The notes below the pieces were generated by a model. That model ran no database searches, was not told the origin of the DNA, and saw only the letters and a program-made list of their open reading frames with translations. Positions 14,936 through 34,209 of a DNA stretch of 59,972 bases are shown here, one piece after another. The DNA lies in assembly GCA_018829335.1 (NCBI GenBank), contig JAHJUD010000009.1, positions 1 through 59,972 of the forward strand. The letters are read 5' to 3'. The first letter of the stretch is position 1. Each line of letters starts with the position of its first letter. Origin of the DNA: Candidatus Micrarchaeota archaeon (lineage in GTDB: Archaea; Iainarchaeota; Iainarchaeia; Iainarchaeales; 1-14-0-10-31-34). A program made the position numbers and the translations under genes.

Positions 14936-14944
14936 TTAACACAA

Positions 14945-15841
14945 CTACTTTTTTTGAATTGAATAAATAACCTTTTTTAGTCCTTCTTCAAGCGAAGTAT
15001 TGCAGGTAAAGCCGGTTAATTTCTTTAATTCAGCTGAATTAAAAGCAATTCTTTCTGTTTCCAGTTCATCCAACCCTGAAGGAAATTTATCGCGGATTAG
15101 TTCTGACTTTGAATGAGTAAGTTTTTTTATCAGCTTTGCCAAGTCAAGCACGCTTGTATTTTTTCCTGTACCTACTTCAACTGCCTTTGAAAAAGTTTTT
15201 TCAGAGAAAGCTGCAAGAATTGTTGCTTTTGCTGCATCACCTGCATAAGTAAAATCTCTTTGCTGTTTTCCTGAACCAAAAAGTACTATAGGCCTTCCTT
15301 CAATTGCATCCCTTACAAAAAACGGCACAACCATTTCCTTGTTTTGGCCTTCGCCGTAAACATTATAATATCTTATAATGGAATAACCTATTTCGTTTTC
15401 TTTATGGAATTCTTCAATAAAGTATTCTCCCATTTGTTTTGCTGCAGGATAAGAAAAAAAAGCATTTGAATGAACTTTAGAAAAAGAAAAATTTTGTTTA
15501 AATTTATCGCTTAAAATAGCGCTTGAAGGATAAATCACTTTTTTTGTATTGTATTCCAAAGCATAATTCAGCACATTATAAAGCCCTGTTAATTCAGTGT
15601 GAATTAATTTTATGGGATTTCTTGAACTGTAAATTCCCCCGCCAATATAAGCAAAATGAAAAACATAATCAAATTTGCCGACTGAATCAATCCAAGAATT
15701 ATCTGTAACATCAAAAACAAGAGAATCAAAATTCCTGTTTTCTGTCAAATCAAGAATCATTACTTTATTTTCTTTTGAAAGCTCTGAAGCAATCCTTGAA
15801 CCAATCAAGCCATTGCCTCCTGTAACAAGAATTTTATTCAT
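14945..15841 (-). CDS. NAD-dependent sugar epimerase/dehydratase (SDR family)
   Basis: Rossmann motif ILVTGGNGLIGSRI and catalytic YxxxK (YPAAKQMGE). 298 aa. Confidence 0.85.
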   Translation of the reverse strand: MNKILVTGGNGLIGSRIASELSKENKVMILDLTENRNFDSLVFDVTDNSWIDSVGKFDYVFHFAYIGGGIYSSRNPIKLIHTELTGLYNVLNYALEYNTKKVIYPSSAILSDKFKQNFSFSKVHSNAFFSYPAAKQMGEYFIEEFHKENEIGYSIIRYYNVYGEGQNKEMVVPFFVRDAIEGRPIVLFGSGKQQRDFTYAGDAAKATILAAFSEKTFSKAVEVGTGKNTSVLDLAKLIKKLTHSKSELIRDKFPSGLDELETERIAFNSAELKKLTGFTCNTSLEEGLKKVIYSIQKK

Positions 15842-15905
15842 TAAATTAATTATTCTAAAAAGTCAATAAAAGCTTTTCTTGCTTGGGAAACAGAAGTTTT
15901 CCAGG

Positions 15906-17027: not shown

Positions 17028-18133
17028 TTTTTCACCAAAATCTTTTTGAGAAACTGCTCAAAAGAGTTTAACGAATTAACAAAAGAAAACTTTTCTTCAA
17101 TTTTTTTTCTTGCTTTAAAGCCAAAAGAAATTCTTTTCTTTTCGTCTTGAGTTAGCTCTAAAAGCTTTTTTTCAAATAAATCAAAATCATTTAGTTTTAC
17201 CAGAAAGCCGTTTATGTTGTCCTCTATTATTTCTGTTGTTCCTCCAATTGAAAAAGCCACGCAAGGAGTAAAACAAGCCATTGCTTCAGCCAAAACCATT
17301 CCAAAAGATTCCTGAGAAGAAGGCAGAACAAGGATTGAAGCAGAAGAAAATGCTTTGATTAATTCTTTTCTTGAAATTCCTGACCTAAAAGACACTTTTT
17401 TTTTGGAAGAATCCACTAAACTCTTTATTTTCTTTAAGTAGTTTTTTTCTTCAGTTGAATCTGGTTCAGGAAAAATTATTTCAAAAATCCATTTCTCAAA
17501 ACCACTTTTTTTTGTTAAATTCAAAACAAAATCTATTCCTTTATGTTTTACAAGCCTTGCAACAAACAAAATCTTTTTTTGCTTTTTTTCCGGCGAAAAC
17601 GGAAATTCATCTAACACAACAAAATCAGGCAGCTGAAGAATTTTTTTTTCAGGAATTTTTGTCTGTTCAATCACTGATTGTATAATAGAATTGCCTGCAA
17701 TAAGCGTGTAATCTGAATGTTTTACGCTGAATCTCGCAAGAAAATCATAAAAAAAATTGTTTGGTTTAATCCAAGGGTTATGGTTGAATTCATGGTAAAT
17801 TAAAGGAGTTCTCTTGATTTTTGAAAGAATCAGGCCTGCGAAAATCATTGAACAGCCTGAAACATAAACTGCATCAGTTTTTTTGAAAAGGCTTTTGAAT
17901 AAAACAAAAAAAGAAAAAAATAAGGCATTGGTTTTTTTTGCAGGAAACCTTTCAATATTCAATAAAGGAACTGAACTGAATTTTATTTTTGGGTCAACAG
18001 AAAAATAAGTGACTTCAAATTCTTTCTGTGAAAGGCCTTTTGCCAGATTAAATGAAAGGTATTCTATTGCACCGCCTTTGTCTGTTGGAACGCCAAGAAA
18101 CTGTGTTCCAATCATGCAAATCCTGTAAGCCAT
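17024..18133 (-). CDS. Glycosyltransferase, GT4
   Basis: ARLVKHKG, and VLPSSQESFGMVLAEAMACFTPCVAFSIGGTTEII..NINGFLV. Confidence 0.85.
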   Translation of the reverse strand: MAYRICMIGTQFLGVPTDKGGAIEYLSFNLAKGLSQKEFEVTYFSVDPKIKFSSVPLLNIERFPAKKTNALFFSFFVLFKSLFKKTDAVYVSGCSMIFAGLILSKIKRTPLIYHEFNHNPWIKPNNFFYDFLARFSVKHSDYTLIAGNSIIQSVIEQTKIPEKKILQLPDFVVLDEFPFSPEKKQKKILFVARLVKHKGIDFVLNLTKKSGFEKWIFEIIFPEPDSTEEKNYLKKIKSLVDSSKKKVSFRSGISRKELIKAFSSASILVLPSSQESFGMVLAEAMACFTPCVAFSIGGTTEIIEDNINGFLVKLNDFDLFEKKLLELTQDEKKRISFGFKARKKIEEKFSFVNSLNSFEQFLKKILVKK

Positions 18134-18194: not shown

Positions 18195-20078
18195 TTACTT
18201 AAATTTGGCTAAATCTTCAGCTAAAACCAGATAAACTTTTGAATGGCCGGAATCATAAATTTTTTTGCCTAAAGGCATTCTGGAAAAATCATCGCATCTT
18301 AAATAAATCCCGTTAAGATAAAACTCAAAAGGCTTTTGGTCAACACAAGAAACAACAAAACCTGAATTAGATAAATATTCTTTTGAGCCAAAAGAACCAG
18401 ACATTGTCACAGTAACAAGGTTTTTGCCGATTAATTCTTTTGACGAAAACTCGCTTGCAAAAAGCTCTGCGGATTCTCCATACTGGTTTGAAGCAAAAAG
18501 AACAGGTGCACTAATTGAAGAAATAAACAAAAGAATTAAAGGAATAAAATACAATGGTTTTCTGTAAAAAACAAGGACAATGCAGACTCCCATTACAAGA
18601 GAAGTTAATTCAAGTGTTGCATGCACTCCGTCCTGAAACTGCAAGTGAATCAAAAACAAAACCAAGAAAAATATTGCAATACTAAAAACAAAAATCTGCT
18701 TTTTATCAGGAAAAAGAAAGAAAACAGTCAATACAAGAACTGAAAGCAAAAAATAATTTAAGAGCTTTAAAACCAATTGTTCCAATCCAAACTGCATTAT
18801 ATAATTGTTTATAAAAGGTATAAACCGCCTAAGAAAAGGAATTTCAAGGAATTTTTCTTCTGGAACAAGTTCTTCTGAAGGCGGCAGACCTGATTTTTGT
18901 ATTTCTAAAGGATTAACTTTTGAACTTAAATCTTCTTCTCTTATAATTTCCTGCTGAACATTTCCTCCTACATCAGAAATGCTTCCCTGAACATCAGAAA
19001 AACTTCCAGCCAAGCCAAATAAGTCAATTGAAGTTGAATAAGTGCCTACAAGAACAATAAACAAAAACAAAATAATGATGTCAGTAAAATATGCTTTTCT
19101 TGAAATAGCGTTCTTGAAAAAGAAAAGGAAAACAAAAAAGCCGAAAACTGCAAGAGAAATATACAAAGTCGTTAAATTAATGTAAGTGATTAAAAGCATC
19201 ATTATAACAAGAAGAATCCTTGAATTCAGCTGGTTGAAATATTTTAAGTAAAGGTAAATAAAAACAGGAAAAATAATGAATTTTCCTATCATTTGCGGGG
19301 CCAGATGAAGGTTTTGTATTGGAAAAAAAGCAATTAAAATCGCAAAAATAACAAGTTTTTCTTCAATAAAACGTGTTGCAAGCAGGTAAAAGGAAAGAAA
19401 CATCAATAAAAGAAAGAAAAACTTTAGCAGGAAAAAAATATTTGCAACAGTTGTCCCGAAAATTTTTGCTATAATTACAAGATAATAAAAATAAACAAAG
19501 CTTACATTAACATAATTGTGTTTTCCAAAATCAGCTGGATGCAAAACCCCTGATTCAAGCCTTGAAGTGTTGTCAAGCAAAACCCTTTCGTCTCCAATAA
19601 GGATTTGAGGTGTAATCAAAGGGCTTAAAGTTGAAGCAAAAAGCAAAAACAAGGAAATCCAGAAAAATTTTTTGTTTTGCTGGATCAAAGCATAAATCAT
19701 TGAAGCAGAAATCAATCCAAATCCCAGAAAATAAAAGACATTATATTCTATTATTAACTCAAATTTCTGGGAAAAAAAAGAAAAAAAGACAAGTATTGCC
19801 CCTAAAGAAACTACAGGAAAAAATTTATGGAATCTGAAAAGAAAAAATACTGCAATCAAGGAAACAATAAATGCAAGAAAAGTCAGGTAAAAATCCTGAA
19901 TTAACTCATGTGACCTGAAAGAATTAAAGATGAAATAAAAGAAAAGAAACAAAAAAAGCAATGCAGTAAAATACTTGTTTGAAGCAAAAGCTAAAGCCTT
20001 TGAGTTAATTTTCTCTATCAGCCAGTTATCTTTAATTTTTTCCAATAACATTTCTTTCCACCAAAAAAACCAATCCAA
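18195..20078 (-). CDS. Large polytopic membrane protein (possible glycan polymerase/GT-C-like; function unknown)
   Basis: About 15 hydrophobic helices, an acidic loop (QQEIIREEDLSSKVNP..), and a C-terminal soluble domain. The track start at 20078 is TTG; an ATG alternative lies at 20051. Confidence 0.6.
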   Translation of the reverse strand: MDWFFWWKEMLLEKIKDNWLIEKINSKALAFASNKYFTALLFLFLFFYFIFNSFRSHELIQDFYLTFLAFIVSLIAVFFLFRFHKFFPVVSLGAILVFFSFFSQKFELIIEYNVFYFLGFGLISASMIYALIQQNKKFFWISLFLLFASTLSPLITPQILIGDERVLLDNTSRLESGVLHPADFGKHNYVNVSFVYFYYLVIIAKIFGTTVANIFFLLKFFFLLLMFLSFYLLATRFIEEKLVIFAILIAFFPIQNLHLAPQMIGKFIIFPVFIYLYLKYFNQLNSRILLVIMMLLITYINLTTLYISLAVFGFFVFLFFFKNAISRKAYFTDIIILFLFIVLVGTYSTSIDLFGLAGSFSDVQGSISDVGGNVQQEIIREEDLSSKVNPLEIQKSGLPPSEELVPEEKFLEIPFLRRFIPFINNYIMQFGLEQLVLKLLNYFLLSVLVLTVFFLFPDKKQIFVFSIAIFFLVLFLIHLQFQDGVHATLELTSLVMGVCIVLVFYRKPLYFIPLILLFISSISAPVLFASNQYGESAELFASEFSSKELIGKNLVTVTMSGSFGSKEYLSNSGFVVSCVDQKPFEFYLNGIYLRCDDFSRMPLGKKIYDSGHSKVYLVLAEDLAKFK

Positions 20079-21736: not shown

Positions 21737-23239
21737 ATGAATCAGAACTCCTTGATTATATTGGCAATCTTCATTGCATGCGTGTTTTCTGTTTACTCAC
21801 TGCATATAAATTACCCTTTGCCTTATCATTCAGAAGAATTTGACCATGAAATCATGGCAAAAGAAACAGCAAAAACAGGGAAAATTACTGCAGGAACAAA
21901 CTGGGAAATAGGCTTTTCAGTATTTTTTGGGATAATAAACTCGCTTTTATTCAATAATTTAATTGATTTTCTGGTTTTTATTCCAATTTTGTTTGCTTTA
22001 ATGATTTCGTTTTCTTCTTTTCTTTTAGGAAGGCATTTATTCAAAAACAATCTGGCAGGAATGCTTTTTGCGCTTTTTGCTTTAATGATTCCAAGCAATC
22101 CAGGCATAATGGGCTTAATGTTTGCTGTACCAAACTCAATGGCTTTAGCATTAACTCCGATGCTTTTATTCTTGTTTTTGAAAGGCACAACACACAAAAA
22201 AAGCGCATTATTGTTCATAATTTTGTTTGCTTTTACTACAATAGTTCATCCTGCGTTTACATTAATACTTATTCCAATTATTGGATTTTACCTGTTAATC
22301 AACCCAAAACTTTTTGAAAGAAACCAGTTCAAAATAGCAGTGGGAATAATTGCATTAATTTTGCTGCTGCCGTTTTTTGCTTCAAGAATTGGATTAGAAC
22401 AAGTGAATTTAACTCATAACACTTTAACTTCAATTTCAAAAAACCTAAGTAAAGTTCTGGTATGGGAATCAATAACACAATCCAATCCAAAATTTTATTT
22501 AACAGACTTTTTAGGCCACTATATTCTGTTTCTTGCAGGAATAGGCTTTGGCTTAATGCTAATGCTAAGGCTTTTAATTGAAGTAAAACGAAGAAAAGGA
22601 AAAACCTCTGAAATGGAAAAAGATTTCATTGTATCAAAACACCAGATAATTCTTCCAATTGCATTAATTATTTTAGGCTTTCTTTACATGCATTTTAACC
22701 TGAAAAATTATACTTTTATTGTACCATATGAAAGAATGTACCTTGAATTAATGCTTTTCTTTTTATTAAATGCTGCTTCAGGAGTGTTTCTTTTATGGAA
22801 AATTCTCTCCAAGAAAACCAGCCAGGAAATGCTTAAGCCTTTATCAATAGGATTTATTGTATTAATTCTTTTCCTGCTTTTAACTGTGCCTTTTTCACAG
22901 CAAAAAGAATTATACAAAAACATTGAAGTAACAGGAATTCCGGCGGTTTCATGGATTCAAGAAAACACAAAAAAAGATTCTTCTTTTATTGCATTGCCAA
23001 AGCATTCTCTTGCAATAAAGGCTTTCACTGAAAGAAAAATTTTTGCTTCACCTTCAACCAGGGCAGGAATTCCAGACGACTATGGAATGGAAAGCTTTTT
23101 TATGAAAAACTGCCCTGAAAAAAAAGAAACAATAGAAAAAACAAAAGCAGAATATATTTTCAGCGAAAAAGAAATTTCCTGTGATTCATTTGAAAAAATA
23201 TATGACAAAAAAGAATACAAAATTTACCTTGTTTCATAA
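21737..23239 (+). CDS. Polytopic membrane protein, GT-C-like glycosyltransferase candidate
   Basis: 500 aa. About 11 helices, an acidic first loop (HSEEFDHE), and a C-terminal soluble domain of about 110 aa. Sits at the end of the glycan cluster. No WWDYG motif was seen, so it is not called AglB. Confidence 0.5.
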   Translation: MNQNSLIILAIFIACVFSVYSLHINYPLPYHSEEFDHEIMAKETAKTGKITAGTNWEIGFSVFFGIINSLLFNNLIDFLVFIPILFALMISFSSFLLGRHLFKNNLAGMLFALFALMIPSNPGIMGLMFAVPNSMALALTPMLLFLFLKGTTHKKSALLFIILFAFTTIVHPAFTLILIPIIGFYLLINPKLFERNQFKIAVGIIALILLLPFFASRIGLEQVNLTHNTLTSISKNLSKVLVWESITQSNPKFYLTDFLGHYILFLAGIGFGLMLMLRLLIEVKRRKGKTSEMEKDFIVSKHQIILPIALIILGFLYMHFNLKNYTFIVPYERMYLELMLFFLLNAASGVFLLWKILSKKTSQEMLKPLSIGFIVLILFLLLTVPFSQQKELYKNIEVTGIPAVSWIQENTKKDSSFIALPKHSLAIKAFTERKIFASPSTRAGIPDDYGMESFFMKNCPEKKETIEKTKAEYIFSEKEISCDSFEKIYDKKEYKIYLVS

Positions 23240-26200
23240 TTTTAAAACAAATTTTTTTTTGCTGCCTTTTTTATTCTTTGTGCTTTTTTCTTTTTCTTCT
23301 TTTTCAAGATTCTCTTTTTTGTTGTTTTCAAATTCATCTCTTTCATTATCCAGCCTGGCTGACTTTTTTTTCTGGATTTTTGACTCAAAGTATTTCTGGA
23401 AAGAATAAACAAAAAACAATTCAAGCGCAATCAAAACAATAAAACCTAAAATTCCAAAAAACTTGTTTGAAAACAATGCCAGGAAAAAGAAAATCACTGC
23501 AATAATAATGCTTAACCCTGTTCCATAATTAGGTTTTACAACAAAAAAGTCAGATAAGTCAAAGCAATGCCTTTTGCATTTAGAGAAAGCATAAGATGAA
23601 GCAATAAAAGCCAAAAGCAGTAAAACAGGAATAAGAAAAGGGTTTGTCTGTTCAGGAGAGCCAAAAAAGAATTCAGCTGCAAGGAAAACAAAAGAATAAG
23701 CTTCTTCTTCCTCTGAAATAACCTTAAAAGAAGTCTTAAATTCAGCTGACTTAACTAAAGCCAGAACCTGATAGGTTCCTAATTCATCTGTAATAAAGCT
23801 TACACTTCCTTCAGGCCCTGTAAAAAAATCAAATGATTTTCCGCTGGGAGAAACAACAGTTATTTTTTCTTCTGTTATTGGCCCAAAAACAGAATGATAA
23901 AGAACAATTTTCTGCAGCTGGCCTAAAACAAGCTTTTCCCGCATTACATCTAAAACAAAATCTTCTTTTACTGTATCCCCTGAAACCAAAACAAAGTTTC
24001 TTGCAGGGCATCCTTCATCTATTGTTCCATCCAAATCATCATCAACTGCATTATAACATTTTTCAACCAAATAAGAATAAAGATTAACTGAAACAATATT
24101 GTTTGATTCATCATCTTCAAAAACTTTTTTTGTTGAATCAAGTTCAGCAAAAACACTGCCGTTAATTTCTTCAGAGAAATCAACTGAAAGCAAAACTTTT
24201 TCTTTTTTTCCGCTTGCAAGAGAAAAACCTGAAACTGAATTAATAACCATTTTCTTGTTTTCTTTGGTGTAATAATACAACTCAAGAGAAAAATCCTCTG
24301 CTTCAAGCAGGCCCTGGTTTTCCATTTCCAGTTCCAAAAGAACCAAATTGCCTAACCTCACTGAAAGGTCATTGACCGGCTTAAAATAATTGACTCTTAA
24401 GTCTGCCTGACTTGAAACAACAAAAAATATTTTCCTGCAGTTTTCAGAGTCAATTTCAGAAGAATTCTCTGAAAAAGAAATGCAGACATCATAACCTTTA
24501 TTGCCTGTCAAGCCTGCAGGAAGAACATAATCATATTCAACTGTAACAGAAGAAAGATCATCAAAATTAAGCTTTGAGTCAGCAAAAAAAACCTGTTTAA
24601 TTCCGGCAAATTCTTTAAGGTTCTGCAATTCTATTCCTGCTTTAAGATTTGAAACCTTAACTGAATCAACTATCTGGTTTGAAAGTGAATCCCTTAAAAC
24701 AACAAAAAAGTCAGATGAATCCACAAAACCATTGTTTTTTATTTTTGCGGTCAGCTTTACTTTAGCTCCAGGGGAAACAATTTCCCTGTCAGCATCAAGC
24801 TCGCTTATTTTCAGGTTAACAGAATCACTGTATTTTAGCAGAATTGATTCTTTTTGGTTGTTTGATTCATCTGATTCAGCAAAAGAATTCTGAAAATCAA
24901 TTAAAGCAATTACTTTGTTTTCAGTCCCAGAAAAAACAGCTGAAGGAATACTAAAAGAAAAAGTTTTTGTTTCTCCTGGTTCAATTGAAGTTATCTTATC
25001 AGAAAAAATAATGTTTTTTTCTTTTGCTTCATTCAAAAAGAAATCAATTCCAACCTGAGGCGAAACAAATTTTCCGTTATTTTTTATTTTAACAACAGCA
25101 TTTGATTCTGTTTCCCCTGCAAGCAGGTTTTCTTCAAAATAAAAATCTTCTAAAACCAAATCAAATCCTTCATCAATTATTCCGTTGTCATTGTCGTCAA
25201 TTCCATTGTCTTCTTCTTTTGAGGCAATCTTTACTGCAAAAGAACTAAAATCATTTGATACATCTGCGTCATTGTCTTTGCCATAACAGTCTGAAGTAAA
25301 AGTCAACTCAAATTCTCCTGAATCAAAACCCAAAAGCTTTGGATTAAAATAAAATCCTGAATCATCTTTTCCTGAAAGCTTTCTTGAATAAAGAGATGAA
25401 AGGTAATTTTCAGGAAGCTTTTTTGCTTTTCCTTCAACAACCCAAAAATAAGAAAAAGAGCTTCCAAAAGAGTCAACGAACTCCAAAAAAGAAAGCTGTT
25501 TTTTTTCAGCTGAATTTCCTGCTTTAGCTGAAAACACCAAAAACAATTCATTGTTTTTCTTTTTGTCTGAAACATACACGCAAAATTCCTTGTCGTTAAA
25601 TTCCTTAAAATAGTCTTTTTCTTCTCCAAAAAGTACCTTAACATCAAAAGGCACAACAAAAAAATCCGGAACCTGGGATAAATCAAACCTGAATTTTTTT
25701 ATTCCTGAAACAGGGTCAGCCAAAGGAAACATTTTTTCCCCTGAAGAAAGAACAATAAAATCCCCTAATTCAACTGAATAATCTGCCTTGCATTCTTCAT
25801 CTATTATTCCATCCAAATCATCATCAATGTTGTTAAAGCATTTTTCAGCCAAAACAGTATTCCCTGAAACCACATTAAAAGAAAAAGTACTTGAATTATT
25901 GCTTTTAGAGGCTTCACCCAAAGAATTAACTTTGTCAATTGACACAGAAAGTTCTGTTTTTCCGCTAAAATCAGAAGAAGAAACAAAAAAAGAAATGGTT
26001 TTTTCTTTTCCTGCATTCAAGCCATAGACAATCCTTGACTCAATTGAATTTCCTTTTCCATCAAGAACTGAAACCAGAAAAGAATCTAAAACATCAGTTA
26101 ATCCGTTGTTTTTTATTTTTACAACCAAAGGAAGCAAATCTCCTTGATTAACTGAATTCAAATGATCAACTGAAACAACAAACAAGTCAGGAAATTCTGA

Positions 26201-26989
26201 AGAAGCATTTAAAACAATTTTTTTCTGGAAACTGTTATTGTTTTCATTTTGTTCTATAACATCAAAACCTGAATCAACGACTGCTTCAAGAATATATTCT
26301 CCTGGAGCAAGAAAAGAAGAGTCAAAAACAAATTCAACTTTATCAGAGGCACCTTCTTTTAATTGCTGCAGTTGTTTTTCGCCAATAAAGGTTTTGCCTG
26401 AAGCAGAATTAAAATACAATGAAACATTAAAAAAAGAAGAATCCTTTAATCCGGAATTTGAAACAAAAACTTTTACGGGAATTTTCTGGCCTACAGAGCT
26501 TTCAGGAAAATCAACTGAAGAAACAGAAAGCTCTGGATTATTTGAATTAATTTTTATTGCGCCGACTTTTGTCTGAAAAACAGCAGACTTTCCTAAAGAA
26601 TCAAACAAAATTACATGCAAAGTATAAGAGCCGTCTTTTGCATCAGAAGAAATCCCGCAGACATCCTCAATTAAATCAGAACCTGAAGTTCTTTTGCAGG
26701 AATTGCCTGAATAAGTGTTTGTTACAGTCCAGCCCATTCCCTTGACTATTCTTGAACAGACATAATCAGACAAGTCATTGTCTTTGTATATATGGATTGC
26801 ATAAGCTGAAGGGCAAGAATATTTGTAATTGAATTCCACTGGAATTTTTTCTCCAGGAGAAAAAACATTATCATAAACAGAAAGAATTCTTAAAGGCGCA
26901 TTAGGGTTTGATTCAGGAACAGAAACTAACGCAAAAGCTGAATTAAATAAAAGCAGAAAACACAAAACCAACAAACCATAAAATTTCAT
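23234..26989 (-). CDS. Giant surface protein with CARDB-like beta-sandwich repeats and Ca-binding-like DDDLDG motifs
   Basis: 1251 aa. Signal peptide MKFYGLLVLCFLLLFNSAFA. At least 5 repeats carry the N(N/S/Q)G...(F)xVxLY signature and end in E(S/Q)(D/N)E(S/N)NN. Also CFNNIDDDLDGIIDEEC, DDNDNGIIDEG and CYNAVDDDLDGTIDEGC. C-terminal TM helices plus a K/E tail. Confidence 0.8.
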   Translation of the reverse strand: MKFYGLLVLCFLLLFNSAFALVSVPESNPNAPLRILSVYDNVFSPGEKIPVEFNYKYSCPSAYAIHIYKDNDLSDYVCSRIVKGMGWTVTNTYSGNSCKRTSGSDLIEDVCGISSDAKDGSYTLHVILFDSLGKSAVFQTKVGAIKINSNNPELSVSSVDFPESSVGQKIPVKVFVSNSGLKDSSFFNVSLYFNSASGKTFIGEKQLQQLKEGASDKVEFVFDSSFLAPGEYILEAVVDSGFDVIEQNENNNSFQKKIVLNASSEFPDLFVVSVDHLNSVNQGDLLPLVVKIKNNGLTDVLDSFLVSVLDGKGNSIESRIVYGLNAGKEKTISFFVSSSDFSGKTELSVSIDKVNSLGEASKSNNSSTFSFNVVSGNTVLAEKCFNNIDDDLDGIIDEECKADYSVELGDFIVLSSGEKMFPLADPVSGIKKFRFDLSQVPDFFVVPFDVKVLFGEEKDYFKEFNDKEFCVYVSDKKKNNELFLVFSAKAGNSAEKKQLSFLEFVDSFGSSFSYFWVVEGKAKKLPENYLSSLYSRKLSGKDDSGFYFNPKLLGFDSGEFELTFTSDCYGKDNDADVSNDFSSFAVKIASKEEDNGIDDNDNGIIDEGFDLVLEDFYFEENLLAGETESNAVVKIKNNGKFVSPQVGIDFFLNEAKEKNIIFSDKITSIEPGETKTFSFSIPSAVFSGTENKVIALIDFQNSFAESDESNNQKESILLKYSDSVNLKISELDADREIVSPGAKVKLTAKIKNNGFVDSSDFFVVLRDSLSNQIVDSVKVSNLKAGIELQNLKEFAGIKQVFFADSKLNFDDLSSVTVEYDYVLPAGLTGNKGYDVCISFSENSSEIDSENCRKIFFVVSSQADLRVNYFKPVNDLSVRLGNLVLLELEMENQGLLEAEDFSLELYYYTKENKKMVINSVSGFSLASGKKEKVLLSVDFSEEINGSVFAELDSTKKVFEDDESNNIVSVNLYSYLVEKCYNAVDDDLDGTIDEGCPARNFVLVSGDTVKEDFVLDVMREKLVLGQLQKIVLYHSVFGPITEEKITVVSPSGKSFDFFTGPEGSVSFITDELGTYQVLALVKSAEFKTSFKVISEEEEAYSFVFLAAEFFFGSPEQTNPFLIPVLLLLAFIASSYAFSKCKRHCFDLSDFFVVKPNYGTGLSIIIAVIFFFLALFSNKFFGILGFIVLIALELFFVYSFQKYFESKIQKKKSARLDNERDEFENNKKENLEKEEKEKSTKNKKGSKKKFVLKL

Positions 26990-27028
26990 TTAATCACTTA
27001 ATATTTGTTTTATCCTTTAATAAACTTT

Positions 27029-28243
27029 TCATTTAATCTCCTGTTTTTGCCTTAATTCAAAGATATTTTGTTCAATCTGGTCAAGCTGTCTTTTATAGTC
27101 ATCAAACTGTTCATTGTAAACTTCCCTTGAAATCAACTGCTGATTAAAATAATCTTCTTGAAGCTTTTTCATTAAAATCAAAAGCTTTTTCCTTTTTCTT
27201 GTAAGCAAAGTTCTTTTAACAAAAATTCTTCCTTCCTTGAATGAAACAAAAAAAACATAAACAATAAATAAAACAGGAAAAACATAAACTATTGCATTTT
27301 GCGCAATATAAAAATATAAGTAACCTTTTGGCTCAAAATCAAAGGAACTGCTTCCTGTGTTGCCATAATTGTCTTCTGCAAAAACATTCACATAAAATAT
27401 TTCTGCATTAAGGTCTGTTGTATTGATTACAACAGAATAAAGCCCTGAAGAAATTTCCTCTAATTCAGTTCTCTGGTTATTGAATTCAGCCCAGACTTTA
27501 ATGCCTGAAGCAGAAAAATCATCACTATAAACAGGCCTGATTTTTAAATCCAAAGGCTTGCCGAAATTAAATTCTTTTATTGCAGGCGAAACAAGCTGTA
27601 ACTGCAATGGAACTTTTCTTATTTCAAAAGAAACAATATTGCTTCCGCCGTCTTTTTCTTCTCCAGGAGAAAAAGCAGTAACCATCAAAGCCCATTGTTT
27701 TACTTCAGCATCAATAGGGATTTCAACTTCCTCAAAAAAATAAACTCCGTTTGCTTCAAAATAAAGCCTTTTCTTATTTCCCTGAAAATCCCAAAAATAC
27801 ACTTCAGCGTTATCAACATCTTTTCCTGCATCAGTTATTTTTATTCTTACATCAAATTTTTGCGTCCTAAAATAAGAAGAACTTGAAGGATTAATGAAAT
27901 CAACCCTTAAGTATTCGCATTCAACAGAAGAATTCACATAAAACTCAAGCTCTTTTTCTGATTCATCATCTGAAACAAAAACTTTCCATTGGCCTGCAGG
28001 GTCAATGCAAGGAATAAAATAATTAAAAGAAAAAAAACCGTTTACATCAGGCTGAACAATTGAATTCAAAACTTTTTTTTCTCCGGGGGCTGCAATAAAA
28101 GCCAAATTGACTTTTCCTGAAGAAAAACCATTAAAGTCAATGAACTCTCCTTTAGAATAAGTTCCTTTAACTGAACCCACTTCCAGAGAAAAAGCAAAAG
28201 AAAGCAGTAAAACAAAGAAAACCAAAAACAATAATTTTTTCAT
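27029..28243 (-). CDS. Secreted single-pass membrane protein with Ig-like domains and a conserved cytoplasmic tail
   Basis: I prefer the ATG at 28243 (MKKLLFLVFFVLLLSFAFS signal peptide), 4 nt after the upstream stop. TM helix near aa 325-342, then a RKRKK..LQEDYFN..S.E.Y tail. Confidence 0.7.
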   Translation of the reverse strand: MKKLLFLVFFVLLLSFAFSLEVGSVKGTYSKGEFIDFNGFSSGKVNLAFIAAPGEKKVLNSIVQPDVNGFFSFNYFIPCIDPAGQWKVFVSDDESEKELEFYVNSSVECEYLRVDFINPSSSSYFRTQKFDVRIKITDAGKDVDNAEVYFWDFQGNKKRLYFEANGVYFFEEVEIPIDAEVKQWALMVTAFSPGEEKDGGSNIVSFEIRKVPLQLQLVSPAIKEFNFGKPLDLKIRPVYSDDFSASGIKVWAEFNNQRTELEEISSGLYSVVINTTDLNAEIFYVNVFAEDNYGNTGSSSFDFEPKGYLYFYIAQNAIVYVFPVLFIVYVFFVSFKEGRIFVKRTLLTRKRKKLLILMKKLQEDYFNQQLISREVYNEQFDDYKRQLDQIEQNIFELRQKQEIK

Positions 28244-28247
28244 TTCA

Positions 28248-30347
28248 TCAGCTCCACAAATCATCTTCTCTTCCTTTTTTTTTCTCTGTTCTTTTTTTTG
28301 GTTTAGTTTCTTTTTCCGGCAACTTTTTTCCAGAAAGCTCTTTTTCAGGGAATTCTGTTTTCTCTTCTTTTTTTTTCACTGAAAAAAGCCCTGGCATTTC
28401 CTCTTCTTCGAAAGAATTTTTTTCTCCTGAAATCTTAAACATTGAAGCAGTTTCAACATCATCAAAAGAAACCTTTTTTTCTCCAAAAACCTCTTCTTCG
28501 TCTACTTCAATTCCTTTTTCTTCTGAAGCCTTTTTGAATGCATCAATCGCAGAATCAATGTCTCTTAATTCAGAACTATACTTTGAAAGCAAAGAATAAT
28601 ATTGTTCACTGCTCATTGCACCTAAATTAAAGTATTTTTCCTGCAAATCTCCTTTAAGCCTTTCAAGCTCTTTTTTTCTTTTTGCCAAAGAATTAAGCGT
28701 ATTCAGCCTTTTCCTTACAACAATAATCACAATAATAATAAAAATAAAGGCAAAAATCACTGAAAGAAAAAGCAAAGGGTTTTCCCTGAAATAATACTCT
28801 AAAGTAAGCTCTCCTGTAACTTCAAACAATCTATCAAAATAAACTTTGTTTCCAAAAGCGTCTGTTGCCTGAACCTCTAAAAGAAGCTGTCTTGCCTCAG
28901 ACAAATCCTCGTTTTTCACAACATAAGAAAAATAAAATACTCCAGGTTCTTTTTCATTGCTTGAAATTTCTTTATTGTTTATTTTAACTGAAATCTTGGG
29001 CTTGCTTAAAGCATTTCCATTTTCATAATTCAGTTTAAGCCTGAAATTCAGTTCTTCTCCTAAAGCAGCAGTCTGTTTTTGCGGTTCAACCAAAACAGCA
29101 TTAATTTTTGCTTCATCTACAGTAATTCCCATTTCAGTTGAGCCGCCATATTTCACTGAACCAATTGTTTTTTTTGCATTAACAAGAATTTTTTGTTCTC
29201 CTAAAGGGAAATCAAAAGGCAGAGAATAAGACAAAGAATATTTTCCTTTAGAAACCATTTTCAAAGCAACTTCTTTTCCATCAGGAAACAATGCATTGAC
29301 TTCAGCGTCTTCAACCGGAATTTCATCAAAAAGCACGTCAAACAAAATCCTTATTTCTGAACCCCTGCTGTAAAGCTTTTGATAAGAATCAGGCAAAACC
29401 ACATCCATGAAAATTGTTCCTGCTTCCCTGCTTACAACAACAGTTTTTTCAAGCAATCCCTCGTTTTCAAACCCGTCTTTTCCTGAAACAATAAAATGCC
29501 AGTTTCCTTCAGGATAAATTAAGCTGGTTCTCTGATCCAAAGAAAAAAATCCGTTCTTGTCTGATTTAGTTTTTGATTCAAAAACAGCCTGGTTTTTGTT
29601 TAAAGCAGTAATCGTAATAACAGTTGAAACAGGATTTCCCCTTTTAAGCAAGAATCCCTCAAAATGAATTATGTCGCCTAATACAAAATTGTTTTTGTCA
29701 ATTAAAAAATCAAGTGAAAGCTCAGGGTTTATTTCAACAATAAAATTGTGTGTTTTGCTTACACCCAACTTTTCAGCTGAAATCTCTGAAGCATAATTGT
29801 TTTTAGAGGTAAGTTCAGAGACAAGAAAACTTACAGCATAAATTCCGTCATTTGCTTTTTCGTCTGAATGATTGCCATCATCATACATTGGAATATCTCC
29901 TGCAAAAGTTTTGACTCTTACATTAGCCTGTTTTGCAATAACCCCGTCAGCTTTTATTTTAGCCTTAAAAGTTATTTGATCCCCTCTCAAAAAAACGTTT
30001 TCATCTAAAGGCGAAAGCAATTCAATGGTTAATTCAGTTGGCGCACAATCTGCATCACAATTAGAAAAATCTTCTCCTGACTCACAAATATGGTTTCCGC
30101 AACAATAATACTTTATCTGTGCCCTGCACAAGCCAGTCAGACAGCTGTATTCCTGGCATAAAGCATTTGGCACATTGCCAGAGCATTCACCGCAATCAGA
30201 AGCACAAGTGCATTTGTCTTCTCCTGAATCACAAATGCCGTCATTGTCGCATAATGCAAAATTCAGTTGATTCCATTGTTCAGCCAAAGAAAAAGGCACA
30301 AAACACACAAAAAAAATTAACAAAACCAAAAACAATTTTTTAATCAT
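28248..30347 (-). CDS. Secreted single-pass membrane protein: Cys-rich N-domain, Ig-like repeats, conserved cytoplasmic tail, K/E-rich C-terminus
   Basis: 699 aa. Signal peptide. Duplicated GIC(D/E)SGED..C..DC motif (aa 33-101). TM at aa 524-544, then KRKKELERLKGDLQEKYFN..SSEQY. Confidence 0.75.
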   Translation of the reverse strand: MIKKLFLVLLIFFVCFVPFSLAEQWNQLNFALCDNDGICDSGEDKCTCASDCGECSGNVPNALCQEYSCLTGLCRAQIKYYCCGNHICESGEDFSNCDADCAPTELTIELLSPLDENVFLRGDQITFKAKIKADGVIAKQANVRVKTFAGDIPMYDDGNHSDEKANDGIYAVSFLVSELTSKNNYASEISAEKLGVSKTHNFIVEINPELSLDFLIDKNNFVLGDIIHFEGFLLKRGNPVSTVITITALNKNQAVFESKTKSDKNGFFSLDQRTSLIYPEGNWHFIVSGKDGFENEGLLEKTVVVSREAGTIFMDVVLPDSYQKLYSRGSEIRILFDVLFDEIPVEDAEVNALFPDGKEVALKMVSKGKYSLSYSLPFDFPLGEQKILVNAKKTIGSVKYGGSTEMGITVDEAKINAVLVEPQKQTAALGEELNFRLKLNYENGNALSKPKISVKINNKEISSNEKEPGVFYFSYVVKNEDLSEARQLLLEVQATDAFGNKVYFDRLFEVTGELTLEYYFRENPLLFLSVIFAFIFIIIVIIVVRKRLNTLNSLAKRKKELERLKGDLQEKYFNLGAMSSEQYYSLLSKYSSELRDIDSAIDAFKKASEEKGIEVDEEEVFGEKKVSFDDVETASMFKISGEKNSFEEEEMPGLFSVKKKEEKTEFPEKELSGKKLPEKETKPKKRTEKKKGREDDLWS

Positions 30348-30353
30348 GCAATT

Positions 30354-31205
30354 TCACCACAAAATATCGTCTTGTTTCTTCTGAATCTTGATTTTTTCAA
30401 GCTTTATTCCTTTAGAGGTAATTGAATAAGGAACTAAATTCTTTGAATGGTCACAGCATCTCATTTTCAGTATTTCCATTGCCCTTTTCCTTGAATTGCC
30501 TATTTTTACATTATAAAGCACTATTACCCCGTCTCCAAGAAATTCTTCTATTCCTGTCCTGGAATAAATTCCAGGGTCTTGTTCTGTTTCGGAAATAATG
30601 TAATTCACTGAATCATACTGGTTTAATGAATCAAACATATGCTTGATATAATAACGGTAATTTTCTGAATTTCCCATAAAAGCAACATTTAATGCAGACA
30701 AAGAATCAACTGCAATCTTGTCTGGAACAAAAGGCAGTTCTAATTGTTCAACCTGAACCAATAAAGCCCTTCTCTGTTTCATTAAAGAAGCTTCAACGCT
30801 TCTTGCAATCTTAAAAGGATTAATTTTCAGCATTGCAAAGCTTTCTTCTTTTTCAAATCTTTCTAAATCCCAGCCATAATTGTTTTTCATATGCCTTTTC
30901 AGCTTTTCAGCTGACTCTTCAAACAAAATATAAACAGCTTTTTCGCCCTGCAATAAGCCATGATAAATTGACTGCAGGCAGAAAGTGCTTTTACCTGTTC
31001 CGCATCCGCCTGAAACCAGAATAGTAGAGCCTCTTTCAATTCCATGGGCTGCCAGATTCTCATCAAAAGAGTCAACCCTTACAGGCAGAAACTCCATTTT
31101 TTCTTTTTTCCTTAATTTCCTGTCCTTCATATCCTCTAATTCTTCTTCTTCAATGCTTCCAGGCTCAATCTCTTCTTTTCCTGCAAACTTAATTCCAAAC
31201 GGCAT
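30354..31205 (-). CDS. KaiC-like / RecA-superfamily ATPase (single domain)
   Basis: 283 aa. Walker A ILVSGGCGTGKST, FCLQSIYHGLLQGEKAVYILFEES, and Walker B-like KIAVDSLSAL. Acidic N-terminal extension of about 45 aa. First gene of the operon. Confidence 0.8.
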   Translation of the reverse strand: MPFGIKFAGKEEIEPGSIEEEELEDMKDRKLRKKEKMEFLPVRVDSFDENLAAHGIERGSTILVSGGCGTGKSTFCLQSIYHGLLQGEKAVYILFEESAEKLKRHMKNNYGWDLERFEKEESFAMLKINPFKIARSVEASLMKQRRALLVQVEQLELPFVPDKIAVDSLSALNVAFMGNSENYRYYIKHMFDSLNQYDSVNYIISETEQDPGIYSRTGIEEFLGDGVIVLYNVKIGNSRKRAMEILKMRCCDHSKNLVPYSITSKGIKLEKIKIQKKQDDILW

Positions 31206-31235: not shown

Positions 31236-31249
31236 ACTTATATAAAAAG
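31236..31249 (-). promoter_or_regulatory. TATA-like box for the KaiC-like operon
   Basis: The minus strand reads ctttttatataagt, centred about 38 nt upstream of the ATG at 31205, inside a 133-nt divergent spacer. Confidence 0.4.
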
Positions 31250-31338
31250 CTTTCCTTTTGGAATACAAAAAATATATAATTATTATATACTCAGTTAAAA
31301 CCAAATAATATTAATTGATTGCAGATTATATTTTTTGA

Positions 31339-33051: not shown

Positions 33052-34209
33052 ATGGACATAGAAAAAGTCAAAGTTGACGGAAAAGAAATAATCCTTGTAG
33101 GAACTGCCCATATTTCTGATAAAAGTGTTGACTTAGTAAAAGAAACAATTGAAAAAGAAAAACCTGATTCAGTTGGAATTGAACTGGATTATGCAAGATT
33201 CAAACAGCTTGAATCAGGAAACAAATGGCAGGAAACAAATGTTTCGCATATAGTTAAAACAGGCAAAACATACCTTTTCTTGATTAATTTAATGCTTTCA
33301 AACATGCAGAGAAAATTAGGCAAAGAACTTGGAATAAAGCCTGGCGCAGAAATGCTTGAAGCATTTAATATAGCAAAAGAAAAAGGACTGGTAGTTGAAC
33401 TGCTTGACAGGGATGTTCAGGTAACTTTGAAAAGGGCTTTAGCTTTTACCGGCTTAAAAGAAAAAATCAAAATATTAATGCATATTGTTTCAGGTTTTTT
33501 TTCTGAACAAGAACAATTAACAAAAGAAAAAGTTGAATCATTAAAACAAAAAGATGTAATGACTGAATTAATGAATGAACTTGCAAGAACTGCCCCTACA
33601 ATAAAAAAAGTCCTTGTAGATGAAAGAGACTTGTATATTGCCAACAGGATTCTTGAATCTAAATCAAAAAAAATTGTTGCGGTAGTCGGAGCAGGACATT
33701 TGGAAGGAATAAAAACTGCGTTAATGAAAGAAAGAATTGATTTAAGGCCTTTAAAGATTGTGCCAAAAAAGAAATCAATTTTAGGAACTGTATTAAAATA
33801 TTCTATTCCTGCAGTTTTTATTGTTTTTTTGGTTTATGCTTTTTACAATAAAGGCGTTAATGCTTCAATTGAATTAATTTTTTTGTGGTTTATTATTACA
33901 GGAGTTTTTTCTGCTTTAGGCGCATTACTTGCAAGAGCTCATCCGGTTTCAATTATTGTTGCATTTCTTGCAGCGCCTTTTACTACTTTGCATCCTGCTT
34001 TGGCTGCAGGATGGTTTGCCGGCGCAGCAGAAATCAAATTTAATTCCCCTAAAGTAAAAGACTTTGAAAATTTGAATCAATTGGATTCAGTTGGAAGCTT
34101 TTATTCAAATAAAGTCACAAAAATTCTTTTGGTTACTGCTTTCACAAACATTGGCGCAACAATCGGAGTAATAATTGCCCTGCCTTATATTTTGAGTATT
34201 TTAGCATAA
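33052..34209 (+). CDS. TraB/PrgY/GumN-family protein with C-terminal membrane domain
   Basis: ILVGTAHISDKSVDLV, DSVGIELD, DRDVQVTL and VVGAGHLEGI motifs. Four C-terminal hydrophobic helices. Confidence 0.8.
   Translation: MDIEKVKVDGKEIILVGTAHISDKSVDLVKETIEKEKPDSVGIELDYARFKQLESGNKWQETNVSHIVKTGKTYLFLINLMLSNMQRKLGKELGIKPGAEMLEAFNIAKEKGLVVELLDRDVQVTLKRALAFTGLKEKIKILMHIVSGFFSEQEQLTKEKVESLKQKDVMTELMNELARTAPTIKKVLVDERDLYIANRILESKSKKIVAVVGAGHLEGIKTALMKERIDLRPLKIVPKKKSILGTVLKYSIPAVFIVFLVYAFYNKGVNASIELIFLWFIITGVFSALGALLARAHPVSIIVAFLAAPFTTLHPALAAGWFAGAAEIKFNSPKVKDFENLNQLDSVGSFYSNKVTKILLVTAFTNIGATIGVIIALPYILSILA

What the first reader, a model, noticed from the sequence alone, without database searches (positions are those of the whole stretch)
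23234..31205. Four-gene operon: KaiC-like ATPase followed by three secreted, membrane-anchored beta-sandwich proteins
All four genes lie on the minus strand with tight spacing of 6, 4 and 39 nt, behind one TATA-containing divergent spacer. A single-domain KaiC/RecA-like ATPase with an acidic N-terminal extension comes first. It is followed by a 699-aa protein, a 404-aa protein, and a 1251-aa CARDB-repeat giant with Ca-binding-like DDDLDGxIDE motifs. A cytoplasmic P-loop ATPase co-transcribed with cell-surface adhesin-like proteins that carry conserved cytoplasmic tails suggests an ATP-driven or ATP-gated surface apparatus for attachment or host interaction. It contains no known archaellum or pilus components: no ArlI/ArlJ, prepilin or secretin-like genes are present.
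Basis: inference. Interest (0 to 1): 0.65.

Follow-up and report, generated by a model that had tools for sequence, protein, structure and literature searches.

The report
KaiC-type ATPase with paired surface receptors
A small archaeon carries a conserved, undescribed gene module in which a KaiC-type ATPase is always encoded next to two related cell-surface proteins that share a cytoplasmic tail, most likely an ATP-controlled surface receptor or adhesin unit.

Summary
Four tightly spaced minus-strand genes sit at the stated coordinates: a single-domain KaiC-like ATPase (283 aa), two signal-peptide/one-TM beta-sandwich proteins (699 and 404 aa), and a 1251-aa CARDB protein.

New here: the 699- and 404-aa proteins are paralogues. 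They share a beta-sandwich stalk, a TM helix and a cytoplasmic helical hairpin (LQxxYFxxxxISxxxY). They belong to a large family with no Pfam model (1593 representative clusters).

ATPase + two tail-bearing paralogues is a conserved triad in Iainarchaeia/Diapherotrites, Micrarchaeia and Woesearchaeota; a Hadarchaeum locus has the ATPase with one tail protein. Gene order is A-B-C or B-C-A. Tail proteins flank about 22 of 25 informative loci whose ATPase is at least 40% identical, and none of about 50 loci with more distant KaiC-like ATPases. The associated ATPases form one clade.

The fourth gene is not core. It varies between lineages, has a different three-TM anchor, and has its own conserved BRE/TATA-like element.

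Best reading (inferred, not shown): the B/C tails dock a membrane-proximal KaiC-type hexamer that acts as a nucleotide or phosphorylation switch for a surface receptor/adhesin pair. No published description was found. It is not an archaellum, pilus, circadian KaiC or GvpD system.

The parts
31239..31257 (-). BRE/TATA promoter element (GGAAAGC-TTTTTATA-TA), about 35 nt upstream of the ATPase ATG
   Evidence: Read. The motif is conserved in position in six relatives while the flanking sequence diverges (alignment A6).
30354..31205 (-). Gene A: single-domain KaiC-like RecA-fold ATPase, 283 aa. It has an N-terminal extension of about 40 residues (MPFGIKF..., acidic run 11-27).
   Evidence: PF06745 scores 163.8 bits. 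The best PDB matches are KaiC CI domains. Walker A, catalytic EE and Walker B are conserved. It falls in the clade of tail-associated ATPases.
28248..30347 (-). Gene B: 699-aa type-I membrane protein. In order: signal peptide, Cys-rich head (about 23-100), choice-of-anchor-X motif (152-176), four beta-sandwich domains (about 105-514), TM helix, cytoplasmic hairpin, disordered K/E tail.
   Evidence: Homologues found.
28518..28790 (-). B residues 520-610: TM helix continuing as a long cytoplasmic helix, a turn at YFNLGAMS, then a second helix. This is the conserved tail hairpin.
   Evidence: AF2 helices 524-575 and 580-610. Tail alignment and HMM.
27029..28243 (-). Gene C: 404-aa paralogue of B, with signal peptide, three beta-sandwich domains, TM helix and the same tail hairpin. 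An alternative start at 28264 gives 411 aa.
   Evidence: phmmer B versus C gives 1e-21 to 1e-23. AF2 pLDDT 79. Foldseek best matches are macroglobulin-domain arrays.
27032..27319 (-). C residues 309-404: TM helix plus the conserved cytoplasmic helical hairpin.
   Evidence: AF2 helices 308-368 and 373-403. Tail HMM E=5e-31.
27016..27029 (-). BRE/TATA-like element AAAG-TTTATTAAA in the 39-nt C-D spacer. It is a candidate internal promoter for gene D.
   Evidence: Read. It is conserved in L007, L008 and L005, with an equivalent AAAGCTTTAAATA in L002 (alignment A7). Function is not shown, and the genome is AT-rich.
23234..26989 (-). Gene D: 1251-aa secreted CARDB-repeat protein with three DDDxDGxIDE Cys-flanked motifs. 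It is a lineage-specific accessory of the module.
   Evidence: CARDB scores 162 bits in 5 stretches. Motifs located. Homologues occur only in the window's clade.
23237..23647 (-). D residues 1115-1251: conserved C-terminal anchor of about three TM helices plus a Lys/Glu-rich end. It is unrelated to the B/C tail.
   Evidence: alignment with L001, L002, L004, L007, L008.
21737..23239 (+). Convergent 500-aa polytopic membrane protein with a weak DUF6541 match. It is syntenic with the module in the window's clade only.
   Evidence: Pfam. Homologues adjacent in L001, L002, L004, L007 and L009.
33052..34209 (+). TraB/PrgY/GumN-family gene, divergent upstream neighbour. It is syntenic in the window's clade only.
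   Evidence: Pfam 126.6 bits. Homologues found in L001, L002, L007, L008 and L009; searches show the divergent upstream position for L001/L002 only.

Best explanation
Proposal. The core is a three-gene module: a dedicated KaiC-type ATPase (A) plus two paralogous type-I surface proteins (B long, C short).

Shown by sequence and models:
- B and C each project a rigid stalk of macroglobulin/Ig-like beta-sandwich domains from the membrane.
- In relatives the membrane-distal head of B-type proteins is variable and can be lectin-like.
- In both proteins the single TM helix continues as an unbroken helix into the cytoplasm. It then folds back as a conserved helical hairpin (basic juxtamembrane KRKK, then LQxxYF, a turn, then ISxxxY...Y..EL).

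Inferred:
- B and C pair or oligomerise.
- Their hairpins form the docking site that holds a hexamer of A at the membrane.
- The nucleotide or autophosphorylation state of A is coupled to the state of the ectodomains. This could run outside-in (ligand or contact sensing relayed to a KaiC-type switch) or inside-out (ATP-dependent control of receptor clustering or conformation). The direction cannot be decided here.

Accessory genes. The CARDB giant D and the polytopic membrane protein downstream are clade-specific envelope genes that travel with the module, not parts of the core machine.
For: Co-occurrence:
- Among 80 species-representative loci fetched with the ATPase profile, tail-HMM hits lie beside the ATPase in about 22 of 25 informative loci with at least 40% ATPase identity.
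- No tail hits occur in about 50 loci with more distant KaiC-like ATPases.
- The three apparent misses inside the core clade are explained. L010 is a 1.8-kb contig. L017 and L019 have the ATPase at the contig edge.
- The associated ATPases form one clade in an NJ tree.
- Reciprocal test: all 4 metagenome loci found with the B/C profile that have upstream DNA carry the ATPase directly upstream of B.

Linkage survives rearrangement:
- The order is A-B-C in the window's clade, Micrarchaeia and Woesearchaeota.
- The order is B-C-A in several Iainarchaeum lineages.
- Tandem duplicated modules occur in L026.
- Gene gaps are 4-6 nt or 4-nt overlaps.

B/C paralogy and tail:
- B and C cross-hit at 1e-16 to 1e-39.
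- The tail has near-invariant Q, Y, F and E positions.
- The family has 1593 representative clusters, and in the listed top 150 the match almost always runs to the protein's C-terminus.

Structure:
- AF2 models show the continuous TM-to-cytoplasm helix plus hairpin.

Ectodomain:
- Long family members carry ConA-like lectin (Laminin_G_3), DUF2341 or fibrinogen-C heads. This fits ligand binding.

ATPase:
- Catalytic motifs are intact.
- Some homologues carry N-terminal TM helices, which fits action at the membrane.

Precedent:
- The KaiC-like protein ArlH binds the cytosolic domain of the single-pass membrane protein ArlX and switches partners by autophosphorylation (PMC8978795).
- KaiC-like ATPases have been proposed as archaeal signalling hubs (Makarova 2017, cited in PMC5847659).
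Against: - No direct evidence of a tail-ATPase contact.
- The tail is not more conserved than the ectodomain core: pairwise identity is 23-56% for the tail and 24-47% for the ectodomain. Tail conservation alone does not single it out as the interface.
- No output component is conserved next to the module, such as a transcription factor, kinase or effector. A signalling role therefore lacks a visible downstream partner.
- Some lineages have only one tail-bearing protein (L016, L018, L028).
- A few ATPases of the sister clade lack tail neighbours (L021, L022).
- Placement beside glycosyltransferase clusters in the window and in L004 fits a structural envelope role equally well.
Confidence: 0.45

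Rival explanations
1. Envelope-assembly reading. B and C are structural envelope proteins, for example S-layer stalks or pseudoperiplasm spacers. The KaiC-like ATPase would be their dedicated assembly, insertion or turnover factor, not a signalling switch.
For: - The beta-sandwich core of B/C is itself conserved at 24-47% identity.
- The family is large and widespread.
- The module sits in envelope and glycosylation neighbourhoods, with GT clusters in the window and in L004.
- The published Micrarchaeota S-layer protein lacks a clear membrane anchor, and its authors suggest a separate stalk protein.
Against: - No S-layer Pfam or NCBIfam model matches B or C.
- Variable lectin-like heads fit receptors better than lattice components.
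- KaiC-family proteins are known as switches and autokinases rather than unfoldases or insertases (PMC8978795).
- B and C have ordinary signal peptides, so Sec export needs no extra ATPase.
Confidence: 0.2
2. Mechanical reading, closest to the first reader. The ATPase hexamer does work on the TM-continuous helices of B/C to move or retract the surface stalks. This would be an ATP-driven attachment or gliding-type apparatus, analogous to Mycoplasma mobile surface legs driven by an internal RecA-fold ATPase (analogy from my own knowledge).
For: - An unbroken helix runs from the membrane into the cytoplasm in both AF2 models.
- ATPase catalytic residues are intact.
- Some relatives have lectin-like heads.
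- Genetic coupling is strict.
Against: - No polytopic stator or platform protein is conserved in the triad.
- The characterised KaiC-like relative ArlH does not hydrolyse ATP, according to PMC8978795; my own background is that KaiC-family ATPases generally turn over ATP slowly.
- No motility or attachment data exist for these organisms.
- The reading is analogy only.
Confidence: 0.08
3. Loose association. The ATPase is a general KaiC-type regulator that merely shares an operon with surface proteins, for example for co-expression, without any physical contact with them.
For: - No interaction has been demonstrated.
- The tail is no better conserved than the ectodomain.
- Archaeal genomes hold many KaiC paralogues in varied contexts.
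Against: - Linkage persists across phyla and through gene-order changes and duplications.
- Linkage is restricted to one ATPase clade. That pattern is typical of subunits of one complex.
Confidence: 0.12
4. Secretion reading. The triad is a dedicated export or display system for the large neighbouring surface protein, such as the CARDB giant D.
For: - Large secreted proteins often lie next to the triad: D in the window's clade, a 1474-aa NosD/beta-helix protein in L005, and proteins of 700-2300 aa in L015, L023, L028 and L029.
Against: - The neighbour is not conserved and is often absent.
- D has its own signal peptide, its own anchor and probably its own promoter.
- The triad contains no channel-forming polytopic protein.
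Confidence: 0.05

Closest known systems
ArlH with ArlX in the crenarchaeal archaellum motor
   Same: A single-domain KaiC-like RecA-fold protein works at the membrane together with the cytosolic helical domain of a single-pass membrane protein. ArlH acts as an ATP-binding/autophosphorylation switch (PMC8978795).
   Different: - There is no ArlI, ArlJ, archaellin or prepilin peptidase in the window.
- The NCBIfam ArlH score is 44 against a cutoff of 215.
- ArlX has an N-terminal TM helix and no ectodomain. B and C are type-I proteins with large beta-sandwich ectodomains.
KaiC-like ATPases as archaeal signal-transduction hubs (Makarova, Galperin & Koonin 2017, mBio; the paper itself was not readable here)
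   Same: An archaeal single-domain KaiC homologue is genomically wired to putative input modules. The concept is summarised in PMC5847659.
   Different: The partner here is a pair of type-I surface proteins with a shared cytoplasmic hairpin and no Pfam model. I found no description of this partner in the papers I could search. I could not check that paper's own figures.
Cyanobacterial circadian KaiC
   Same: It is the best sequence and structure relative of the ATPase domain (CI domain; full-sequence E=5e-52, domain E about 1e-30). The P-loop and catalytic glutamates are the same.
   Different: The window protein has one domain rather than two. No kaiA or kaiB was seen among the window ORFs scanned. 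TIGR02655 scores 100 against a cutoff of 546.
Integrin-type heterodimeric adhesion receptors (functional analogy only, from my own knowledge)
   Same: Two related type-I membrane proteins, one longer and one shorter, carry stalks of Ig-like domains, single TM helices and short conserved cytoplasmic tails that would bind a cytoplasmic regulator.
   Different: There is no sequence or family relationship. Heterodimerisation is not shown here. The cytoplasmic partner is an ATPase rather than talin/kindlin.
Predicted archaeal secretion/membrane complex around arCOG01314 (Makarova 2015, PMC5898192)
   Same: It is a cluster of membrane-anchored and secreted Ig-like proteins with a cytoplasmic P-loop ATPase, predicted from gene neighbourhoods.
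   Different: That system is defined by a MoxR/GvpN AAA+ ATPase, vWA-domain proteins and a DUF4350 protein. None of these is present here.

Membership tests
KaiC/RecA-like ATPase superfamily (Pfam PF06745) | Domain match above the gathering score | tested here: met
   163.8 bits against a cutoff of 26.6, residues 44-270.
KaiC/RecA-like ATPase superfamily (Pfam PF06745) | Walker A, catalytic glutamate pair and Walker B present | tested here: met
   GGCGTGKST (residues 65-73), FEE (95-97) and DSLS (167-170) are invariant or nearly invariant in 26 homologues. Catalysis itself was not tested.
Circadian KaiC (TIGR02655 / PRK09302) | Two tandem KaiC domains and an equivalog-level score | tested here: not met
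   The protein has a single domain and 283 aa. It scores 100 bits against 546 and 124 against 408.
Circadian KaiC (TIGR02655 / PRK09302) | kaiB/kaiA partner genes nearby | tested here: not met
   No such domains were seen in Pfam scans of most larger window ORFs; a few (e.g. 1890-3076, 7122-7757, 37630-37962) were not scanned. The rest of the genome was not seen.
ArlH (archaellum KaiC-like protein, NF052589) | Equivalog score, and location in an arl cluster with ArlI/ArlJ | tested here: not met
   44.3 bits against a cutoff of 215. No T2SSE/ArlI, ArlJ or archaellin was found in the window.
GvpD (gas-vesicle KaiC-like regulator, PF07088) | Domain match above the gathering score | tested here: not met
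   18.1 bits against a cutoff of 24.
Archaeal KaiC subfamily KaiC_arch_3 (TIGR03880) | Score above the curated cutoff | tested here: not met
   119.4 bits against 249.45. This is the closest named archaeal subfamily, but the protein is not a member.
Type IV pilus / archaellum-type machinery | PilB/ArlI-type hexameric ATPase, polytopic platform protein and prepilin-like substrates | tested here: not met
   T2SSE scores 12.9 bits against 24.9 for the ATPase. The window ORFs scanned contain no platform or pilin genes.
CARDB-domain surface proteins (PF07705), gene D | CARDB repeats above the gathering score | tested here: met
   162.3 bits against 22.7, in 5 stretches.
Choice-of-anchor X domain (NF041940), gene B | Motif match above the cutoff | tested here: met
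   37.2 bits against a cutoff of 25, residues 152-176. This is a short motif only and says nothing about function.
Alpha-2-macroglobulin/complement MG-domain proteins | MG2 domain above the gathering score and overall fold agreement | tested here: inconclusive
   Pfam MG2 scores 17.9 and 15.8 bits against 32.8. Foldseek gives E=6e-15 to C3/C5 MG arrays, but TM-score is only 0.24. The domain type is shared; family membership is not shown.
SHOCT domain (PF09851) for the B/C cytoplasmic tail | Significant match to the SHOCT profile or to a bona fide SHOCT sequence | tested here: not met
   No Pfam hit at E up to 10. The tail HMM scores a real SHOCT sequence from L016 no better than shuffled controls.
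arCOG01314-type predicted secretion system (PMC5898192) | MoxR-type AAA+ ATPase, vWA protein and DUF4350 membrane protein in the neighbourhood | tested here: not met
   None of these domains was found in the module or its neighbours. System composition taken.
Known anti-phage defence systems (PADLOC) | Matches to the components of a defence system | tested here: not met
   The only hit is a partial P-loop match of the ATPase to mad8 (33 bits). B, C and D have no hits.

The most novel reading that the evidence does not exclude
The triad would be a previously unrecognised, DPANN-wide ATP-coupled surface machine. A membrane-docked KaiC-type hexamer would actively change the conformation, clustering or extension of paired stalk-like receptors through their TM-continuous helices. 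This would give these tiny, often host-attached archaea an energy-dependent attachment, release or contact-sensing device unrelated to pili or archaella.
Probability: 0.15. Interest if true: 0.85.

Novelty: new variant of a known kind. Interest (0 to 1): 0.6.

Why it matters
DPANN archaea make up a large share of archaeal diversity, and many live attached to other cells. How they sense or hold on to surfaces and hosts is largely unknown. This module is widespread in at least three DPANN lineages, with an ATPase-plus-one-tail-protein variant in one Hadarchaeum locus. It is built from a protein family that has no database model.

It links the cell surface directly to a member of the ATPase family proposed as the main archaeal signalling hub. 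It therefore offers a concrete, testable receptor-to-KaiC pathway: defined tail peptides, a defined ATPase clade and defined ectodomain heads.

If the ATPase proves to do mechanical work on the stalks, the module would be a new kind of prokaryotic surface machine.

Tried and rejected
1. SHOCT-like tail. The LxxLxxxYFxxGxIS pattern looks like SHOCT. Pfam gave no hit, and the tail HMM scored a genuine SHOCT sequence no better than shuffles. Rejected as unsupported.

2. Shared C-terminal 'DDLW' ending. The ATPase ends in DDILW and B ends in DDLWS, which suggested a docking motif. A similar ending recurs in some close relatives (P0005, P0012; the B consensus ends DLWx) but is absent from L001, L002, L004, L005 and more distant homologues. 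Not followed further.

3. 'The tail is the most conserved part of B/C.' Pairwise identities of tail and ectodomain core are similar. Claim dropped.

4. arCOG01314 secretion system and the DPANN 'dark matter' cluster. These come from PMC6393860 and PMC5898192. Their composition is different: MoxR, vWA and DUF4350.

5. S-layer identity. B and C match no S-layer model. The Micrarchaeota S-layer protein is of the PF05123 type. S-layer stalk is kept only as a rival.

6. Defence system. PADLOC gave nothing meaningful.

7. PDB search with the tail profile. No significant hit; the best was a designed helical hairpin at E=0.056.

8. Makarova 2017 KaiC-hub paper. It could not be read; it is not held.

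9. Reciprocal metagenome scan with the B/C profile. It returned only 5 loci. These agree with the linkage but are too few for statistics.

10. Sigma-70 promoter/terminator scan. Not used, because the organism is an archaeon. BRE/TATA elements were read and aligned instead.

Full report
**Observation**

- A: 30354-31205, 283 aa.
- B: 28248-30347, 699 aa.
- C: 27029-28243, 404 aa from the second ATG, or 411 aa from 28264.
- D: 23234-26989, 1251 aa.

The gaps between them are 6, 4 and 39 nt. The window has about 32% GC and no tRNA or Rfam hit. Its closest relatives are MAGs labelled Diapherotrites/Iainarchaeum.

**The four proteins**

*A (ATPase).* A has one KaiC domain (PF06745, 163.8 bits). Its best solved relatives are KaiC CI domains, followed by the single-domain archaeal proteins PH0186, PH0284 and SSO2452. 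Walker A, the catalytic Glu pair and Walker B are conserved across 26 homologues. It falls below the curated cutoffs for circadian KaiC, ArlH, GvpD and the named archaeal KaiC subfamilies.

*B and C.* Each has a signal peptide and one C-terminal TM helix.
- The AF2 model of C (pLDDT 79) shows three beta-sandwich domains.
- The AF2 model of B (pLDDT 71) shows four, after a low-confidence Cys-rich head.
- In both models the TM helix continues unbroken about 35 residues into the cytoplasm, turns at the YFNxxxIS motif, and returns as a second helix. This forms a helical hairpin.
- B then has about 90 disordered Lys/Glu-rich residues.
- Foldseek matches C to macroglobulin-domain arrays of complement C3/C5, but with a global TM-score of only 0.24. 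This indicates a shared domain type and nothing more.

*D.* D has five CARDB stretches and three Cys-flanked DD[DN]xDGxIDE motifs. Its C-terminal anchor has about three TM helices.

**B and C are paralogues with a shared tail**

B and C hit each other and each other's orthologues at 1e-16 to 1e-39. The cytoplasmic hairpin aligns across Iainarchaeia and Micrarchaeia. Its consensus is L.KRK..L..L.KKLQ..YF....IS...Y......Y..EL..IE..L.

D does not have this tail.

The tail has no Pfam or PDB match. A resemblance to SHOCT did not survive testing. The tail is not more conserved than the ectodomain core.

**Family size and heads**

An exhaustive profile search found 1593 representative clusters at 50% identity with E<=1e-3, and 412 with E<=1e-30. 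In the listed top 150 the match almost always runs to the C-terminus, and lengths range from 254 to about 1660 aa. No Pfam family covers this core.

Long members add N-terminal ConA-like lectin (Laminin_G_3), DUF2341 or fibrinogen-C domains. Others add Big_13 or NPCBM_assoc Ig-like domains. The conserved part is therefore stalk + TM + hairpin, and the membrane-distal head varies.

**Conservation of the gene arrangement**

Contigs carrying ATPase homologues show these arrangements:
- 76% and 66% ATPase identity: A-B-C-D-like, plus the convergent polytopic membrane protein and the divergent TraB gene.
- A Micrarchaeia MAG: A-B-C followed by an unrelated 1474-aa NosD/beta-helix protein.
- An Iainarchaeum contig: B-C-A.

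I then fetched 80 species-representative loci with an ATPase profile and searched their ORFs with a tail HMM.
- Tail-bearing ORFs lie next to the ATPase in about 22 of 25 informative loci with at least 40% ATPase identity.
- They lie next to none of about 50 loci with more distant KaiC-like ATPases (haloarchaea, Bathyarchaeota, Altiarchaeota, other DPANN paralogues).
- The misses inside the core clade are a 1.8-kb contig (L010) and two contigs cut at the ATPase (L017, L019).

In an NJ tree the associated ATPases form one clade. Its core is Iainarchaeia plus Micrarchaeia. A sister group contains Woesearchaeota, Nanoarchaeia and Hadarchaea and is only partly associated.

The reciprocal scan of metagenome contigs with the B/C profile gave only 5 loci. 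All 4 with upstream DNA have the ATPase directly upstream of B.

Variations seen:
- one rather than two tail proteins (L016, L018, L028);
- three tail proteins (L038);
- a second divergent KaiC-like gene after the first (L011, L014, L038);
- tandem modules (L026).

**Operon structure**

A BRE/TATA element (GGAAAGC-TTTTTATA) lies about 35 nt upstream of the ATPase start. It is conserved in six relatives while the surrounding spacer diverges.

The A-B and B-C junctions are 4-6 nt or 4-nt overlaps in every relative examined. A-B-C is therefore very likely one transcript.

The 39-nt C-D spacer contains AAAG-TTTATTAAA. The same element occurs in L007, L008 and the Micrarchaeon L005, with an equivalent in L002. 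D probably has its own promoter in addition to any read-through. In L001 D overlaps C by 4 nt, so arrangements differ between relatives.

D is also variable between lineages and has a distinct anchor. For these reasons I treat D as a clade-specific accessory gene rather than a core part.

**Interpretation**

Three points are shown:
- a specific KaiC-like ATPase clade is genetically locked to a pair of paralogous type-I surface proteins;
- those proteins have a stalk of beta-sandwich domains and a conserved cytoplasmic hairpin on a TM-continuous helix;
- heads vary and can be lectin-like.

The rest is inferred. I propose that the hairpins recruit the ATPase hexamer to the membrane, and that its nucleotide or phosphorylation state is coupled to the state of the receptor pair.

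A documented precedent exists for a KaiC-like protein working with the cytosolic domain of a single-pass membrane protein. ArlH binds ArlX and switches partners by autophosphorylation (PMC8978795). The general idea of KaiC-like ATPases as archaeal signalling hubs is published (cited in PMC5847659).

Some homologous ATPases carry N-terminal TM helices, which fits action at the membrane.

Against a pure signalling reading, no conserved output component is adjacent. The module also sits among envelope and glycosylation genes. A structural or assembly role is therefore the main rival.

**Comparison with known systems**

The module is not an archaellum or pilus: the window ORFs scanned contain no ArlI/PilB, ArlJ/PilC or pilin genes. 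It is not circadian KaiC, GvpD or ArlH by curated thresholds. It is not the arCOG01314/MoxR/vWA predicted secretion system. It is not a known defence system.

Literature searches on KaiC with DPANN or surface proteins found no description of this triad. The key 2017 KaiC survey could not be read, so prior mention there cannot be excluded.

**Verdict**

The functional link between the ATPase and the surface proteins is strongly supported by comparative genomics. The unit is a triad rather than a four-gene operon. The mechanism remains inference.
- Novelty: a new variant of the KaiC-centred module idea, built around an uncharacterised and widespread receptor-like family.
- Interest: 0.6.

Noticed in passing
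window 44107-46965 (-): The S-adenosylmethionine synthetase (bacterial MetK-type N, M and C domains) is interrupted by an intein with a LAGLIDADG homing endonuclease. The resulting ORF is 952 aa.
   Followed up: no
window 54849-59468 (-): A 1539-aa protein has a lytic transglycosylase (SLT) domain near its C-terminus (residues 1322-1405) and no other Pfam match. A peptidoglycan-cleaving domain is unexpected in an archaeon without murein and might act on bacterial neighbours.
   Followed up: no
window 3269-18133, including 5588-7115: A large glycosylation island holds at least nine GT1/GT2/GT4 glycosyltransferases, an epimerase, a methyltransferase and an ABC-2 type exporter pair. It lies just downstream of the module, together with two polytopic membrane proteins at 18195-20078 and 21737-23239.
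   Followed up: partly
window 31262-31290 (-), upstream of the ATPase promoter: A second AT-rich element (TATATATTTTTTATATATTTTTTGTAT-like) is conserved in the window, L007, L001 and partly L008. It may be the divergent promoter or a regulator site.
   Followed up: no
ATPase residues 1-10 (window 31176-31205) and B residues about 650-662 (window 28362-28400): Short aromatic/glycine/lysine motifs recur in three places: MPFGIKFAGK at the ATPase N-terminus, PGLFSVKKK in the disordered end of B, and GLFGGLFGKK-like motifs in the N-terminal extensions of many homologous ATPases. They could be membrane-binding or docking peptides. This is unexplained.
   Followed up: partly
P0098, P0101, P0103; P0040-P0090 group (ATPase homologues): Some ATPases of this family carry N-terminal TM segments. 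Many others carry a conserved small helical N-terminal domain (RLLDAxKRLL...EEIxxxLxxxGLSxEEA) followed by an FWExxxGxFF motif.
   Followed up: no
L023 8752-12636, L024 3203-7093, L026 8789-12679, L029 9023-13594: Woesearchaeota B-type proteins (about 1300-1500 aa) give two consecutive tail-HMM hits at the C-terminus, which suggests a duplicated hairpin.
   Followed up: no
L011 8733-9527, L014 9553-10314, L038 9794-10648; L026 4130-6097: Several Iainarchaeum loci have a second, divergent KaiC-like gene right after the module's ATPase, and these form their own clade. In L026 an extra module ATPase is fused to an N-terminal DUF5752 domain.
   Followed up: partly
window 48782-53884 (+): Three co-oriented genes of 267, 600 and 832 aa. 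The last has weak Cep192/TMEM131-type Ig-like matches and the others have no Pfam hit. This looks like another uncharacterised surface-protein cluster. It has no B/C-type tail.
   Followed up: no
window 28243-28264 (-): Gene C has two possible starts. The 411-aa form, as called in public data (P0140), overlaps B by 17 nt. The 404-aa form starts with a canonical MKKLLFLVFF signal peptide 4 nt after the B stop.
   Followed up: partly
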